From NCBI GenBank assembly GCA_964252035.1, contig OZ176200.1: 64,000 bases of DNA; one strand, given 5' to 3'. The position numbers are program-made. The DNA comes from Podarcis erhardii. Taxonomy: Eukaryota. Shown here piece after piece: positions 44,501 through 56,500 of the stretch; the first letter of the stretch is position 1; every line of letters begins with the position of its first letter.

Positions 44501-47500
44501 AGCAGTGTAGAGTAAAACACAGTTACATAAATTCAATAAACATTGAAAATATCAGCCCCAAACTTGCAAAAAACAAACAAACAAAGTCAGATAAAGCAGG
44601 ATTAACAAAATGATTTAAATGTAAATATAAAAAGTAAGTAAAAAGGTTTCTACTCCTCCTCAAACTATACAGCAGAGCACCAAAGTAGACTCCCCTGTGG
44701 AGAGTGGTGCACAATCATGATGTAGGTATAAGGAAGGATGTATGTTGAGCATATGTACAATCAATCCAATATGTGAATGAAAACATTGCTTCAGCTGCTT
44801 TTCAAATTCATTAAGAGAAACTCACCAGGAGAAAACAAGCCCTTACTAAATCCGGGCACACGGCAGAAACATGGAGTTGTTCTGCTCAAAGTGACTGTTG
44901 TAGTTCCTGTTGTAGAAGGTATGGAAGTACTTGTTGCTGCTGAAGACACAATAGAAAAGAAATAAATGTATAGCAGTTGTTACGTACTGCTTGAAGACAT
45001 ACTGCTGGAAATGGATGCTGAACACTGTAGATACTTAAGACTTCAGTGTACACTTCCAAAGCACCAACTGAAGCATAACAATTCAGAATTCCAACTGAAC
45101 TCAGCCGGACTTACATGTATCTTTAGGGTTGGAGAATTTAACTTGATAATTGTACTACAAAAACCAGTTAATTGTTTAATGGATCAGATCAATACTTTGC
45201 TTACTTGCTGTTCTTATTATACACCTACCATGCTATCAAGAAACAGGGGAATCCAGCTATATTCCTCCCAGTATCAAGAAACACACCCCTCCAGTCCAAA
45301 GGTGCTGTTAAGAAAATTCCAAATATCTAGCCAGAGAGCTATCTACTACTTGAAATAGCACTGAAAACTTATTTGAAAAATGCACACTGAGATCTAGGCA
45401 AACATTTTTGATAAGTTGCTAGCTGATAGACACTAGGTTTCATAAATGGGATACCAATTTTTGAAAAGGGTGGTATATGAAATAAGATCACCAAACCCCA
45501 ATTAATATGAAACAATTTGCTAACATTTGGCATGACACCTGTAATTGAGTAACATGTAATAAATTTAACTGTTGGAATATTTACCAAAGGTAACAAGATT
45601 TTCATACCAGGATATGCAGATTCATTCTGTAATTACCTGTTGTAACAACAACCAAAGGCTTAGTGGAAAATGGCACTCTGGTAGGGACAGTTGCTGTTTC
45701 TACAGTAATCCCAGTAGTGGATATCGTCGACACAGGTTTGGAAACATGGGTAGATGGAAGAGATGTGGTTGAAACGGTGGAAGCCACTCCAGAAGTGATG
45801 AAAGGTGTGCTGACGGAGCCAGGGGTTGAGAGAGGGGTGGTGGTCATGGGCTTTCCTGTTGTAATTCCAGGAGTGGTGGAAACAAGGGTGGTGCTTTGGG
45901 TGGTAGTGACTACAATGGGTGGTGGTGTAGAAGCTGTGGAGGATGCTGGAGTTGTGCTCTTGCCAGCAGTGCTGCCTGGTGTTTCTGTGGTCGTTGGCTT
46001 TCCTGTGGTTACTCCTGGAGTTGTGGAAACAAGAGTGGAGCTTTGGGTGGTGGTAAATACAATGGGAGGTGGCGTAGACCCCGTGGAGGATGCTGGAGTT
46101 GTGCTTTTGCCTGCCGTGCTGCCAGGTTTTTCTGTGGTAGAAGCAGCAGATGTGCTCAGTGGTGTTGTGCTAGGATGGCAGGGCTTGTATTCACAGCACT
46201 GGTATCTAACCTGGAAGTTATAACACATCTTGTCTGTTTGCTTTGAATTTTCACACAAAAGTCCAACATGGAGGTTACATTGCACTTCCTGACCAAGCAG
46301 ATGCAGGCTGACATCAGGGTGATTCTCAGCTCTGCATTCAATGTCTTGTGGATGTTTGCAAATATTTCCTCCAGCTTTTCGGATGGTCTCAAAATTCTCA
46401 ATATCGCCATCATCTGGACTGCTGGTAGGACGGTGCAAATCATACCAGGAGGTCCAGTTACACTTTGGGAGGCACACAGTAGAGGTACTTTCTAGCGTAG
46501 TGGTAACAAGGGGAGCCAGGGTGGTTGTTGTGGTCAGCAGGCCTGGAGGGGTTTGTGCAGTGGTCCCGGTGGTGGGTATTGTTGAGGAAGGCTTGGAAAC
46601 AGGAGTGGACTGGAGTGTTGTGGCTGTCACAGTGGGGACCACTCCAGTGGAGACGGCAGCGGTGCTGACTGAGGCTGGTGTTGTGAGAGGGAGGGTGGAA
46701 AGCGGCGTTGAGTGGGTGGTGGTGGTTGGCTTTCTTGTTGTAACTCCTGGAGTTGTCGGAAGAAGGGTGGTGCTTTCGGTGGTGGTGAATACAACGGGAG
46801 GTGGCGTAGAGCCCGTGGAGGATGCTGGAGCCGTGCTCTTGCCTGCCGTGCTGCCTGGTGTTTCTGAGGTTGTTGGCTTTCCTGTGGTTACTCCTGGTGT
46901 TGTGGAAACAAGGGTGGTGCTTTCGGTGGTGGTATGGACAACAGGAGGTGGCGTAGAGCCCGTGGAGGATGCTGGAGCCGTGCTCTTGCCCACCGTGCTA
47001 CCTGGGGCTTCTGCGGTGGTGGCACTTGTTGTGACCAGTGGCGCTGGCGTGGTTTCACAGTGCTTGTAGTCGCAACACAGTGCTCTCATCTCATAATCGT
47101 AACACATCTTGTACTTCCCCATCTGTTTGGCATTCTCACAAAGGAGTCCAGTGTTGATATCGCAGATCATGTTCTGTCCAAGTTCAGATGCGCTCAGCTC
47201 TGGGTAGTCCACTCCTCTGCACTCCACCTTTTGAGGGTGCTCGCAGATGGTACCCCCCGATGCCTGGATGCTCTTAATGTCCTCTCGATCGCCATCCCCA
47301 GGGTCGGAGCTTGGAGTGTGAAAACTGAACCAAGAGGTCCACTGGCATTTGGGTTGGCAACCGGTAGTGGTGCTTCCTGGCGTAGTGGTAACAAGGGGAG
47401 CCAGGGTGGTTGTTGTGGTCAGCAGGCCTGGAGGGGTTTGTGCAGTGGTCCCGGTGGTGGGTATTGTTGAGGAAGGCTTGGAAACAGGAGTGGACTGGAG

Positions 47501-53500: not shown

Positions 53501-56500
53501 TGTGGTGGTGGCACTTGTTGTGACCAGTGGCGCTGGCGTGGTTTCACAGTGCTTGTAGTCGCAACACAGTGCTCTCATCTCATAATCGTAACACATCTTG
53601 TACTTCCCCATCTGTTTGGCATTCTCACAAAGGAGTCCAGTGTTGATATCGCAGATCATGTTCTGTCCAAGTTCAGATGCGCTCAGCTCTGGGTAGTCCA
53701 CTCCTCTGCACTCCACCTTTTGAGGGTGCTCGCAGATGGTACCCCCCGATGCCTGGATGCTCTTAATGTCCTCTCGATCGCCATCCCCAGGGTCGGAGCT
53801 TGGAGTGTGAAAACTGAACCAAGAGGTCCACTGGCATTTGGGTTGGCAACCGGTAGTGGTGCTTCCTGGCGTAGTGGTAACAAGGGGAGCCAGGGTGGTT
53901 GTTGTGGTCAGCAGGCCTGGAGGGGTTTGTGCAGTGGTCCCGGTGGTGGGTATTGTTGAGGAAGGCTTGGAAACAGGAGTGGACTGGAGTGTTGTGGCTG
54001 TCACAGTGGGGACCACTCCAGTGGAGACGGCAGCGGTGCTGACTGAGGCTGGTGTTGTGAGAGGGAGGGTGGAAAGCGGCGTTGAGTGGGTGGTGGTGGT
54101 TGGCTTTCTTGTTGTAACTCCTGGAGTTGTCGGAAGAAGGGTGGTGCTTTCGGTGGTGGTGAATACAACGGGAGGTGGCGTAGAGCCCGTGGAGGATGCT
54201 GGAGCCGTGCTCTTGCCTGCCGTGCTGCCTGGTGTTTCTGGGGTTGTTGGCTTTCCTGTGGTTACTCCTGGTGTTGTGGAAACAAGGGTGGTGCTTTCGG
54301 TGGTGGTATGGACAACAGGAGGTGGCATAGAGCCCGTGGAGGATGCTGGAGCCGTGCTCTTGCCCACCGTGCTACCTGGGGCTTCTGTGGTGGTGGCACT
54401 TGTTGTGACCAGTGGCGCTGGCGTGGTTTCACAGTGCTTGTAGTCGCAACACAGTGCTCTCATCTCATAATCGTAACACATCTTGTACTTCCCCATCTGT
54501 TTGGCATTCTCACAAAGGAGTCCAGTGTTGATATCGCAGATCATGTTCTGTCCAAGTTCAGATGCGCTCAGCTCTGGGTAGTCCACTCCTCTGCACTCCA
54601 CCTTTTGAGGGTGCTCGCAGATGGTACCCCCCGATGCCTGGATGCTCTTAATGTCCTCTCGATCGCCATCCCCAGGGTCGGAGCTTGGAGTGTGAAAACT
54701 GAACCAAGAGGTCCACTGGCATTTGGGTTGGCAACCGGTAGTGGTGCTTCCTGGCGTAGTGGTAACAAGGGGAGCCAGGGTGGTTGTTGTGGTCAGCAGG
54801 CCTGGAGGGGTTTGTGCAGTGGTCCCGGTGGTGGGTATTGTTGAGGAAGGCTTGGAAGCAGGAGTGGACTGGAGTGTTGTGGCTGTCACAGTGGGGACCA
54901 CTCCAGTGGAGACGGCAGCGGTGCTGACTGAGGCTGGTGTTGTGAGAGGGAGGGTGGAAAGCGGCGTTGAGTGGGTGGTGGTGGTTGGCTTTCTTGTTGT
55001 AACTCCTGGAGTTGTCGGAAGAAGGGTGGTGCTTTCGGTGGTGGTGAATACAACGGGAGGTGGCGTAGAGCCCGTGGAGGATGCTGGAGCCGTGCTCTTG
55101 CCTGCCGTGCTGCCTGGTGTTTCTGGGGTTGTTGGCTTTCCTGTGGTTACTCCTGGTGTTGTGGAAACAAGGGTGGTGCTTTCGGTGGTGGTATGGACAA
55201 CAGGAGGTGGCGTAGAGCCCGTGGAGGATGCTGGAGCCGTGCTCTTGCCCACCGTGCTACCTGGGGCTTCTGCGGTGGTGGCACTTGTTGTGACCAGTGG
55301 CGCTGGCGTGGTTTCACAGTGCTTGTAGTCGCAACACAGTGCTCTCATCTCATAATCGTAACACATCTTGTACTTCCCCATCTGTTTGGCATTCTCACAA
55401 AGGAGTCCAGTGTTGATATCGCAGATCATGTTCTGTCCAAGTTCAGATGCGCTCAGCTCTGGGTAGTCCACTCCTCTGCACTCCACCTTTTGAGGGTGCT
55501 CGCAGATGGTACCCCCCGATGCCTGGATGCTCTTAATGTCCTCTCGATCGCCATCCCCAGGGTCGGAGCTTGGAGTGTGAAAACTGAACCAAGGGGTCCA
55601 CTGGCATTTGGGTTGGCAACCGGTAGTGGTGCTTCCTGCCGTAGTGGTAACAAGGGGTGTCAGAGTGGTTGTTATGCCACCTGTCACTTTAGATGTTGTT
55701 CTGGATCCTGCTGTTGTTATTTCTGGTGTTGCTGGAGTTGTTGATGCACCACATGGCGTGTATAGGCAGCATAGGAACCTGATTTCAAAATTCAGGCAGA
55801 TTGGTGGTGTCTGATCCTTATTGTTGCATATCAAACCGTTAGACTTGGAACATTGTACCTTTTGTCCGAGGGTTTCTATGCTCTCATTAGGAAAGCGCTG
55901 AGCTCTGCATTCCACTTCATCTGGCATTTTACATACTTTGTTTCCTCTATCTCTTATTTTCTCTGGTGTTTCATAATCCCCATTGTCTCGTCCAAATTTA
56001 GGGTAGCTGACATCATACCATTCTGTCCATTCACATGTTCTATGGACACATACTGTTGTTTGTGCTGTAGTGGATTCTGAAAGAAACAACATCACTGGTT
56101 ATTTTAATCCGGTTCATTTAGATCATAAATCTCCCTATCTGTTATCTGCCTCCTCTCTCCTTTCCCATGTAACCTCTCTCCCAAGTTTTTTCTGTAGATG
56201 AGGCAGGGATTGGGGGGCGGGCGGGGGACCAGAAGAGCACATTGTTGGAAGTGGATCATTCCATCTGGGGAGCTGCCATGCTTGAGCCGATTGAACCTTC
56301 AACTTAACTTTATGTTGATTTCCATCTTGTATATGTTTATTTTAAAATAATATATGCAACATGTAACAAAAATATGAATATGATGTATTTGGGGATGTTT
56401 TCCTATGTTATAGAAGATTTGTAAAGTTTTTCATTATCTCTTCATTTTCTTACATACTTTGTTTATAAATGCTTGCTTTTGATCATGTCGCATTTACATC

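What the first reader, a model, noticed from the sequence alone, without database searches (positions are those of the whole stretch)
45637..56076. Central exon built from ten almost identical CysD+PTS modules (12 CysD in total)
Seen: a unique first CysD, ten CysD copies identical in protein except one Pro/Ser, each followed by about 195 or 245 aa of PTS, and a divergent last CysD. Units differ at only a handful of nucleotides. Known: human MUC5B has 7 CysD and MUC5AC 9, with more diverged copies and longer PTS tracts. Inference: very recent expansion or strong concerted evolution producing a mucin with evenly spaced, identical cross-linking/adhesive CysD nodes about every 295 aa, predicting a fine, regular gel mesh and copy-number polymorphism among individuals.
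Basis: partly seen in the sequence, partly recalled or inferred. Interest (0 to 1): 0.65.

Follow-up and report, generated by a model that had tools for sequence, protein, structure and literature searches.

The report
Lizard MUC5B-type mucin repeat exon
This is the large central exon of a lizard gel-forming mucin, in which ten nearly identical cysteine-domain-plus-sugar-carrying-spacer modules are kept alike by repeat turnover, and the same pattern appears in its relatives, so it is real but ordinary.

Summary
One exon on the minus strand (45637-56076, 10,440 bp) encodes 12 CysD domains. It has a unique first CysD and ten middle CysD+PTS units: eight of 885 bp and two of 1,032 bp. Units 2-10 differ at 0-5 nucleotides. 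The last unit is diverged, 74% nt identity.

The gene is a gel-forming mucin of a lacertid lizard, not human. Its flanking exons are mostly 94-100% identical to Podarcis muralis "mucin-5B-like". It lies tail-to-tail with TOLLIP, the MUC5B position.

The first and last CysD are 1:1 orthologues in three lacertids. The middle copies are uniform within each species and carry species-specific substitutions in every copy.

Such arrays occur in 11 of 11 squamate proteins with five or more CysD, and in 41 of 78 such proteins overall. Podarcis has 8 middle units at the same 295-aa spacing and Zootoca has 5 at 294 aa.

The gel-mesh prediction and within-species copy-number polymorphism were not testable. 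Copy number cannot be checked without reads. Verdict: a new member of a known kind, of low to moderate interest.

The parts
45637..56076 (-). Central PTS/CysD exon of the mucin gene (10,440 bp)
   Evidence: Open frame 45602-56098. Splice acceptor at 56077/56076 and donor at 45637/45636. 12 PF13330 stretches.
55748..56050 (-). CysD1, unique; 1:1 orthologue of the first CysD of other squamates
   Evidence: The first CysDs of 10 squamates form one clade, SH-aLRT 100.
55619..55747 (-). Short PTS1 linker (43 aa, 51% Ser+Thr)
46475..55618 (-). Array of ten near-identical CysD+PTS units (units 2-11): eight of 885 bp and two of 1,032 bp
   Evidence: Unit coordinates. Units 2-10 differ at 0-5 nt pairwise. 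Longest exact internal repeat is 1,964 bp at offset 1,917.
52817..53848 (-). Long unit 4 (344 aa), with a third copy of the 147-bp PTS sub-repeat
47360..48391 (-). Long unit 10 (344 aa); its 147-bp insert is identical to that of unit 4
46172..46474 (-). CysD12, diverged edge copy (66.9% nt identity to a middle CysD); orthologous to the last CysD of Podarcis and Zootoca
   Evidence: Clade of the three last CysDs, SH-aLRT 100.
45637..46171 (-). PTS after CysD12, with two diverged copies of the 147-bp sub-repeat (78.5% nt identity to a middle PTS)
56871..62973 (-). Upstream exons of the same gene (third VWD, C8 and the rest of the D3 assembly). Bounds are the outer tblastn HSP limits, not exact exons. 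D1-D2 lie beyond the window end.
   Evidence: Pfam VWD and C8 on single ORFs. 7 HSPs to P. muralis P0002 residues 864-1308: six at 94-100% identity, the first at 72%.
25099..44958 (-). Downstream exons: fourth VWD (41865-42116), C8 (39353-39529), cysteine-rich exons, and the cystine knot in two exons (26822-26932 and 25099-25272). The gene ends at 25099.
   Evidence: Pfam. 16 HSPs to P0002 residues 4114-4988: eleven at 92-100% identity, five at 61-86%.
2967..16462 (+). TOLLIP exons (C2 domain 2967-3308, CUE domain 16184-16462), tail-to-tail with the mucin
   Evidence: Pfam C2 E 1.4e-7 and CUE E 7.6e-15. PDB 1wgl 'Toll-interacting protein' E 4.4e-21.

Best explanation
The feature is the single large central exon of the TOLLIP-adjacent (MUC5B-position) gel-forming mucin of a lacertid lizard. 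The species is closer to Podarcis muralis than to Zootoca.

The encoded protein alternates compact ten-cysteine CysD domains with Ser/Thr/Pro-rich spacers of about 194 aa (243 aa in two units). By analogy with other mucins, these spacers would be densely O-glycosylated.

The ten middle modules are a tandem array of 885-bp units kept nearly identical by repeat turnover, that is unequal crossing-over and/or gene conversion (concerted evolution). New substitutions either spread to all copies or are lost. Copy number and spacer length drift, and the edge units (CysD1, and CysD12 with its PTS) escape homogenisation. This is the normal state of this gene in squamates and of many MUC5-type genes in other vertebrates.

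Shown here: the anatomy, the domain identity and fold, the synteny, within-species uniformity with fixed species-specific differences, and the spread of the pattern across the clade.

Inferred: the molecular mechanism of turnover, O-glycosylation, and CysD acting as non-covalent cross-links that set pore size (by analogy with human MUC2 CysD).
For: Anatomy.

CysD identity:
- Pfam PF13330 matches 12 stretches.
- PDB sequence hits are MUC5AC CysD 8ov0 at E 8.6e-26 and MUC5B 8oer at E 5.9e-22.
- The AlphaFold model has pLDDT 93.1. Foldseek gives TM 0.88 to 8ov0 and 0.85 to 8oer.

Gene context:
- VWD and C8 lie upstream. VWD, C8 and the two halves of the cystine knot lie downstream on the same strand.
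- Of 23 flanking tblastn HSPs collinear with P. muralis mucin-5B-like, 17 are 92-100% identical and 6 are 61-86%.
- TOLLIP C2 and CUE exons lie on the opposite strand, tail-to-tail. Lang et al. 2016 report this arrangement for Muc5b (PMC4948705, passages).
- A separate 'mucin-5AC' exists in P. muralis, P0127.

Turnover:
- Units 2-10 differ at 0-5 of 885 nt, synonymous sites and PTS included.
- Mean unit identity in protein is 98.9% within the window. It is 96.3% to Podarcis units and 89.8% to Zootoca units.
- Four CysD substitutions (N/D, N/D, M/R, M/I) are present in 10 of 10 window copies against 8 of 8 Podarcis copies.
- CysD1 and CysD12 each differ from their Podarcis orthologues at only 2 of 101 positions.
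- In a tree of 122 CysD from 10 squamates, the first CysDs form one clade. The other CysDs cluster by species in all 10 species, and 0 of 500 label shuffles did as well.
- The edge unit is diverged, 74% nt. The human mucin pangenome preprint also reports reduced homogenisation of terminal repeats (PMC13345508, passages).

Spread of the pattern: arrays of at least 5 CysD that each have a twin at 95% identity or more occur in 11 of 11 squamate, 7 of 8 bird, 3 of 5 turtle, 6 of 21 mammal, 6 of 9 amphibian, 7 of 10 fish and 1 of 14 invertebrate proteins with 5 or more CysD.
Against: - No reads were available, so the count of ten units could be a collapse or an expansion. Units 3 and 5 are identical, and a 1,964-bp exact repeat exists.
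- Only protein models, not DNA, were available for relatives. Synonymous divergence within versus between species could not be compared. Gene conversion cannot be told from repeated amplification and loss.
- Relatives' gene models may themselves carry assembly errors.
- The survey is biased. Hits were chosen by similarity to a two-CysD query, and only the 2,367 candidates sharing most words were scored.
- Within the lacertid middle-CysD clade, the window's copies are not resolved as a supported clade of their own (open fork). The case rests on the fixed columns.
- An N-terminal tree leaves orthology to mammalian MUC5B unresolved. It gives a trichotomy of squamate 5B-like, sauropsid 5AC and mammalian 5AC+5B.
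- Expression, glycosylation and CysD self-association were not tested.
Confidence: 0.85

Rival explanations
1. Assembly artefact: the array is real, but the number of units (or the two long units) is wrong because near-identical 885-bp repeats were collapsed or over-expanded.
For: Units are 99.4-100% identical. Units 3 and 5 are identical. There is an exact 1,964-bp repeat at a two-unit offset. Related gene models differ in number: 8 middle units in Podarcis and 5 in Zootoca.
Against: There is no N in the window. The frame is intact for 3,480 exon codons with no frameshift. Nine variant sites give most units their own signature. The 295-aa unit recurs in two other lacertid models. The whole exon is only 10.4 kb, which is within the length of current long reads (general knowledge, not tested).
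Confidence: 0.15
2. Independent, very recent amplification of one middle unit in this lineage only, from an ancestor with about 3 CysD, rather than long-term homogenisation of an old array.
For: Within-array variants are private to each species. The only columns scored as 'shared polymorphic' between window and Podarcis are the 3' junction of the last unit. Within-array divergence is tiny.
Against: It would require parallel amplification of the same 295/294-aa unit in the window species, Podarcis and Zootoca. It would require the same for comparable units in all 10 squamates examined. An old array with continuing turnover is more economical. The two processes are ends of one continuum of unequal exchange.
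Confidence: 0.1
3. Purifying selection on each CysD, not homogenisation, keeps the ten copies identical.
For: CysD domains are structurally constrained: 10 Cys, W7/W10 and other invariant columns across 23 sequences.
Against: Selection on protein would leave synonymous sites and the low-complexity PTS free to diverge. Instead the whole 885-bp unit is 99.4-100% identical. Only 2 synonymous differences occur in ten units, and 7 of the 9 variable sites are non-synonymous. All copies also changed together relative to Podarcis at 4 CysD positions.
Confidence: 0.03

Closest known systems
Podarcis muralis 'mucin-5B-like' (P0002, RefSeq/UniRef model, 4,988 aa) and Zootoca vivipara 'mucin-5B-like' (P0003, 4,146 aa)
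   Same: Orthologous gene. Most flanking exons are 94-100% identical to P0002. The plan is the same: unique CysD1, a run of near-identical CysD+PTS units at 295 aa (Podarcis) or 294 aa (Zootoca), and a diverged last CysD.
   Different: The models have 8 and 5 middle units against 10 here. There are species-specific substitutions in every middle copy. Podarcis has one 388-aa unit instead of the two 344-aa units here. The window has about 25 extra residues at the 3' end of the exon relative to the P0002 model.
Human MUC5B central exon with its 'super-repeat' (Desseyn et al. 1997, seen only as cited in PMC6780288, passages)
   Same: One central exon of very similar size: 10,713 bp in human, 10,440 bp here. 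It is built of repeated Cys-domain + PTS blocks. The gene sits next to TOLLIP (PMC4948705). The CysD fold is the same, TM 0.85 to 8oer.
   Different: Human has 7 CysD and four super-repeats of 528 aa containing 29-aa-type short repeats (PMC6780288; PMC9712336; PMC11912381). The lizard has 12 CysD and ten 295-aa units with a 49-aa sub-repeat, and far higher unit identity. Sequence-tree orthology is unresolved.
Human MUC5AC central exon
   Same: It has multiple CysD, of which six are 'nearly identical' (PMC9712336). CysD and VNTR copy number vary between haplotypes (PMC11344006, summary and passages). The best structural match of the lizard CysD is MUC5AC CysD7, 8ov0.
   Different: It is a different paralogue. 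Lacertids have their own mucin-5AC, P0127, at 51% identity over the aligned part. Human PTS tracts are long runs of 8-aa repeats of very unequal length (PMC9712336).
Homogenised tandem arrays in general (concerted evolution by unequal exchange; recalled textbook concept, e.g. rDNA and VNTR exons)
   Same: Within-species uniformity, between-species fixed differences, diverged edge copies and variable copy number are all seen here.
   Different: Here the unit is a folded protein domain plus a glycosylated spacer inside one coding exon, so the reading frame and 10 Cys per unit must be preserved.

Membership tests
Gel-forming mucin of the MUC2/MUC5 type | CysD (Mucin2_WxxW) domains interspersed in PTS sequence within one large exon | tested here: met
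   12 PF13330 stretches, E 9e-285. PTS segments are 47-51% Ser+Thr and 7-15% Pro. Single exon with canonical splice sites.
Gel-forming mucin of the MUC2/MUC5 type | VWD-C8(-TIL) assembly (D3) immediately N-terminal of the PTS exon | tested here: met
   VWD hits at 62740-63006 and 60218-60511, and C8 at 58788-58994 on the minus strand. Collinear with P0002 residues 864-1308.
Gel-forming mucin of the MUC2/MUC5 type | Fourth VWD-C8 unit C-terminal of the PTS region | tested here: met
   VWD at 41826-42149 (E 1.1e-12) and C8 at 39320-39532 (E 8.8e-14).
Gel-forming mucin of the MUC2/MUC5 type | C-terminal cystine knot | tested here: met
   Two exon ORFs match complementary halves of the Pfam Cys_knot profile, positions 3-36 and 37-90 of 105. 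Each half alone is below the curated cut-off (18.2 and 22.7 bits against 24). Both align at 95-97% to the C-terminus of P0002.
Gel-forming mucin of the MUC2/MUC5 type | N-terminal D1-D2 assemblies and signal peptide | not testable with these tools
   They lie beyond the window end. The first HSP starts at P0002 residue 864 at window position 62973.
MUC5B (orthology) | Tail-to-tail neighbour of TOLLIP, with no other mucin between | tested here: met
   C2 and CUE exons lie on the + strand. No mucin-like HSP in window 1-25050 with the 116 named hits as queries. Criterion taken from PMC4948705.
MUC5B (orthology) | Groups with mammalian MUC5B, away from MUC5AC, in a sequence tree | tested here: inconclusive
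   In the N-terminal 1,250-aa tree of 29 proteins, the squamate 5B-like clade (100*) is separate from sauropsid 5AC (100*). Its relation to the mammalian 5B+5AC clade is an open fork.
CysD domain | Ten conserved cysteines and the WxxW motif | tested here: met
   10 Cys in each of the 12 domains. W7 and W10 are invariant in the 23-sequence alignment, and 8 of the 10 cysteines are invariant. C1 is nearly invariant (at least 90%), and the tenth lies beyond the end of some of the aligned stretches.
CysD domain | CysD fold | tested here: met
   Model pLDDT 93.1. Foldseek TM 0.88 to MUC5AC CysD7 (8ov0), 0.85 to MUC5B (8oer) and 0.76-0.77 to MUC2 CysD1. The next hits have E > 1.
CysD domain | Non-covalent self-association (shown for human MUC2 CysD; PMC3195396, abstract) | not testable with these tools
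   Needs recombinant protein. See Tried and rejected for the one computational attempt.
Concertedly evolving tandem array | Copies more alike within a species than between species, with substitutions fixed in all copies | tested here: met
   98.9% within the window against 96.3% to Podarcis and 89.8% to Zootoca. There are 7 fixed columns against Podarcis and 18 against Zootoca. 4 CysD positions differ in 10 of 10 copies against 8 of 8 copies.
Concertedly evolving tandem array | Homogeneity extends to synonymous and unconstrained sites | tested here: met
   9 variable sites in ten 885-bp units, only 2 of them synonymous.
Concertedly evolving tandem array | Edge copies diverged | tested here: met
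   Unit 12 is 74.0% nt identical to unit 3, and CysD1 is 69.9% identical to CysD3.

The most novel reading that the evidence does not exclude
The homogenised CysD+PTS super-repeat may be a general, and so far apparently unremarked, rule of MUC5-type mucins outside placental mammals. The internal modules evolve in concert in each species. Each lineage has its own unit length (about 167-295 aa) and number (5-22). CysD1 is always exempt and strictly orthologous, and in lacertids the last CysD is exempt as well. If CysD domains are the non-covalent cross-links of the gel, evolution would be tuning cross-link spacing and valency by simple repeat turnover. The vertebrate series would then be a natural experiment on mucus mesh size.
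Probability: 0.35. Interest if true: 0.45.

Novelty: new member of a known kind. Interest (0 to 1): 0.28.

Why it matters
The window gives a clean, apparently gap-free example of how a gel-forming mucin's central exon is built and maintained. It has a folded cross-link domain and a glycosylated spacer, copied as one 885-bp unit and homogenised.

The comparison shows that the regular array is a clade-wide property, not a peculiarity of this genome. That warns against reading any single such array as a recent adaptive event.

The cross-species series of unit lengths and numbers could be used to relate CysD spacing to mucus properties. The exemption of CysD1 from homogenisation fits a distinct role for that domain. 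Such a role is shown for human MUC2 CysD1 in filament assembly (PMC11912381, passages).

For annotation, copy numbers in such exons should be treated as provisional until read-spanned.

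Tried and rejected
1. CysD self-association. One complex-prediction job was run on two copies of the middle CysD. Verdict: 'no answer' (score 0.00, mark 0.32; the tool did not use the alignment).

2. Higher-order repeat. The two long units lie 5,457 bp apart, which suggested a six-unit supra-repeat. The variant pattern does not follow it. The longest exact repeat is at offset 1,917 (one short plus one long unit), and 1,385 bp is exact at offset 5,457. I read these as recent multi-unit exchanges, not a fixed higher-order period.

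3. 'Shared polymorphisms' between window and Podarcis units (4 columns) would have proved an ancestral multi-variant array. They turned out to be the 3' junction of the last unit. Rejected.

4. A second mucin gene downstream. tblastn of the 116 named hits against window 1-25050 gave 0 HSPs.

5. An alternative donor site to match the Podarcis model's shorter exon end. No GT is present at that place in the window. The donor at 45637/45636 was kept.

6. Rfam scan of the whole window: 0 matches at gathering score.

7. The listing of cluster members, to see other members of the Podarcis and Zootoca clusters, could not be made because the database was switched off. A second homologue search found no further lacertid 5B-like model.

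8. Literature. A search for 'gel-forming mucin' with 'concerted evolution' found 2 papers, neither on this subject. In a search for CysD, mucin and 'concerted evolution', none of the 20 listed papers contained the third term. A search for mucin, cys domain, gene conversion, unequal crossing, homogenization and MUC5AC found 9 papers. Only the human pangenome preprint was relevant. Subscription papers (Desseyn 1997-2000) and all supplements were not seen. The supplement of Lang et al. 2016 may show reptile CysD architectures.

9. Steps left out or not possible. Exons were searched one by one, or a reference protein was aligned to the DNA. The joined step was left out, and the Podarcis orthologue stood in where a full-length protein was needed. 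No related lizard DNA could therefore be fetched.

Full report
**1. What is there**

The window has a G+C-rich, strongly strand-skewed block at about 45.6-56.1 kb, against 37-43% G+C elsewhere. On the minus strand one frame is open from 45602 to 56098, 3,498 codons.

A polypyrimidine tract and cag|A acceptor lie at 56077/56076, and an ACAG|gtaatt donor at 45637/45636. The exon is 10,440 bp. The window has no N.

The frame contains 120 cysteines in twelve groups of ten. Pfam finds twelve Mucin2_WxxW (CysD) stretches, E 9e-285.

**2. The repeat**

CysD1 is unique. CysD 2-11 are identical in protein except Pro for Ser in copy 2. CysD12 is different.

Measured from CysD start to CysD start, eight units are 885 bp (295 aa). 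Two units (4 and 10) are 1,032 bp (344 aa). The extra 147 bp is a third copy of a 49-aa PTS sub-repeat and is identical in the two long units.

The ten-unit alignment has 16 variable columns. Seven are the junction of unit 11 with the last CysD. The other nine are all transitions, 7 non-synonymous and 2 synonymous. Units 2-10 differ pairwise at 0-5 nt, and units 3 and 5 are identical. The longest exact internal repeat is 1,964 bp at an offset of one short plus one long unit.

The last unit (CysD12+PTS) is a diverged copy of the same unit type, 74.0% nt identity. CysD1 is 69.9% identical to a middle CysD. PTS segments are 47-51% Ser+Thr.

**3. What gene and what organism**

Exon-sized ORFs were searched one by one. 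On the same strand they give VWD and C8 upstream. Downstream they give VWD, C8 and the two halves of a cystine knot.

The best protein match is Podarcis muralis 'mucin-5B-like', 94% identity over the first 460 residues of the exon. Zootoca vivipara follows at 87%. Aligned to the window DNA, the Podarcis protein gives 23 collinear flanking HSPs. Seventeen are 92-100% identical and six are 61-86%. The gene ends at 25099.

The window is thus from a lacertid lizard closer to Podarcis than to Zootoca. I do not take it for human.

Downstream, on the opposite strand, lie a C2-domain exon and a CUE-domain exon. The CUE exon matches the solved Toll-interacting protein CUE domain at E 4.4e-21. No other mucin exon lies in window 1-25050.

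Lang et al. 2016 state that Tollip lies tail-to-tail with Muc5b in most vertebrates (PMC4948705, passages). By position this is therefore the MUC5B gene. P. muralis has a separate 'mucin-5AC'.

A tree of N-terminal regions, with the Podarcis orthologue as stand-in, puts the squamate 5B-like genes in their own clade, apart from sauropsid MUC5AC. It leaves their relation to mammalian MUC5B and MUC5AC unresolved. That joined step was left out.

**4. The domain**

The middle CysD matches solved CysD structures by sequence: MUC5AC 8ov0 at E 8.6e-26, MUC5B 8oer at E 5.9e-22, and MUC2. An AlphaFold model built from a 23-sequence alignment has pLDDT 93.1. It superposes on MUC5AC CysD7 at TM 0.88 and on MUC5B at TM 0.85, and nothing else scores below E = 1.

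Eight of the ten cysteines and both tryptophans of WxxW are invariant in that alignment. C1 is nearly invariant, and the tenth cysteine lies beyond the end of some of the aligned stretches.

**5. How the uniformity arises**

Purifying selection on the protein cannot explain it. Identity extends to synonymous sites and to the low-complexity spacers.

Comparison with the two other lacertids is decisive on the pattern:
- CysD1 and CysD12 are 1:1 orthologues. Each differs from its Podarcis counterpart at 2 of 101 residues.
- The middle CysDs are uniform within each species and differ between species at positions fixed in every copy. Four positions differ in 10 of 10 window copies against 8 of 8 Podarcis copies, and more differ against the 5 Zootoca copies.
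- Whole-unit protein identity is 98.9% within the window, 96.3% to Podarcis and 89.8% to Zootoca.

In a tree of 122 CysDs from ten squamate proteins, the first CysDs form one clade (SH-aLRT 100). The remaining CysDs cluster by species in all ten species, and 0 of 500 label shuffles did as well.

This is the signature of concerted evolution, or continuing amplification and loss, by unequal exchange, with diverged edge copies. The mechanism itself is inferred. Without the relatives' DNA I could not separate gene conversion from birth-and-death, nor calibrate the age of the last homogenisation. Columns first scored as polymorphisms shared with Podarcis proved to be the array's 3' junction.

**6. 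Is it unusual?**

That result was found.

Podarcis has 10 CysD, 8 of them near-identical at 295-aa spacing. Zootoca has 7 CysD, 5 of them identical at 294 aa.

I defined an array as at least five CysD that each have a twin at 95% identity or more. I counted such arrays among the 116 named hits that have five or more CysD:

| Group | Proteins with such an array |
|---|---|
| Squamates | 11 of 11 |
| Birds | 7 of 8 |
| Turtles | 3 of 5 |
| Mammals | 6 of 21 |
| Amphibians | 6 of 9 |
| Fishes | 7 of 10 |
| Invertebrates | 1 of 14 |
| Total | 41 of 78 |

Four unnamed hits were left out. Both tuatara proteins had fewer than five CysD.

Examples are a sparrow MUC5AC with 24 CysD at 173-aa spacing and a smelt protein with 21 CysD at 167 aa. 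Further lizard, turtle and marsupial models behave alike.

The sample is biased towards CysD-rich proteins. It consists of gene models whose arrays may be mis-assembled.

In humans, six MUC5AC CysD are described as nearly identical (PMC9712336, passages). MUC5B has four 528-aa super-repeats in a 10,713-bp exon (PMC6780288, passages citing Desseyn 1997). [quoted passage not shown] CysD copy number varies among human MUC5AC haplotypes (PMC11344006, summary). Terminal repeats of human mucin VNTRs are less homogenised (PMC13345508, passages).

**7. Function**

Nothing here tests it for the lizard protein. Glycosylation, expression site and gel properties are inferences by homology.

**8. Verdict**

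This is a real, well-resolved and correctly described feature. The 'concerted evolution' reading is supported, and the implied exceptional status is not.

It is a new member of a known kind. What may be new is the breadth and regularity of the pattern across non-mammalian vertebrates and the consistent exemption of CysD1. I could not find either described in the searchable literature. Subscription papers and supplements were not seen.

Noticed in passing
window 2967-3308 (+) and 16184-16462 (+): C2-domain and CUE-domain exons of TOLLIP, convergent with the mucin gene. The CUE exon matches PDB 1wgl (Toll-interacting protein) at E 4.4e-21.
   Followed up: partly
window 90-656 (+): A 189-aa open frame with a reverse-transcriptase domain (Pfam RVT_1, E 6.4e-28). 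It is probably a retroelement fragment upstream of, or within, the TOLLIP gene.
   Followed up: no
window 45637-45715 (-) compared with P0002 residues about 4110-4125: The window's exon encodes about 25 residues (GITVETATVPTRVPFSTKPLVVVTT) before the donor site that are absent from the Podarcis muralis model. The next exon (near 44794-44958) then resumes in register. This is either a real indel or a model difference.
   Followed up: partly
window 45840-55279, eleven places (-): A nested repeat. Every PTS spacer contains 2 or 3 copies of a 147-bp (49-aa) sub-repeat, 85-93% alike, also in the diverged last unit. There are thus two levels of tandem repetition, 147 bp inside 885 bp.
   Followed up: yes
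proteins P0036 and P0065 (tree): Database names do not always follow the tree. Eubalaena 'mucin-5B' (P0036) groups with a whale MUC5AC, and Acipenser 'mucin-2' (P0065) groups with a coelacanth MUC5AC-like protein. Paroedura 'mucin-5AC-like' (P0011) belongs to the squamate 5B-like clade.
   Followed up: no
window 4770-4975, 1944-2033, 29041-29101: Small non-coding tandem repeats: 98 bp x2, 45 bp x2, and 20 bp x3 (the last in a mucin intron).
   Followed up: no
window 3772-4203 (-): A cysteine-rich 144-aa ORF with a weak Pfam CXCL16 match (E 0.0021, 18.8 bits, cut-off 27). Probably chance.
   Followed up: no
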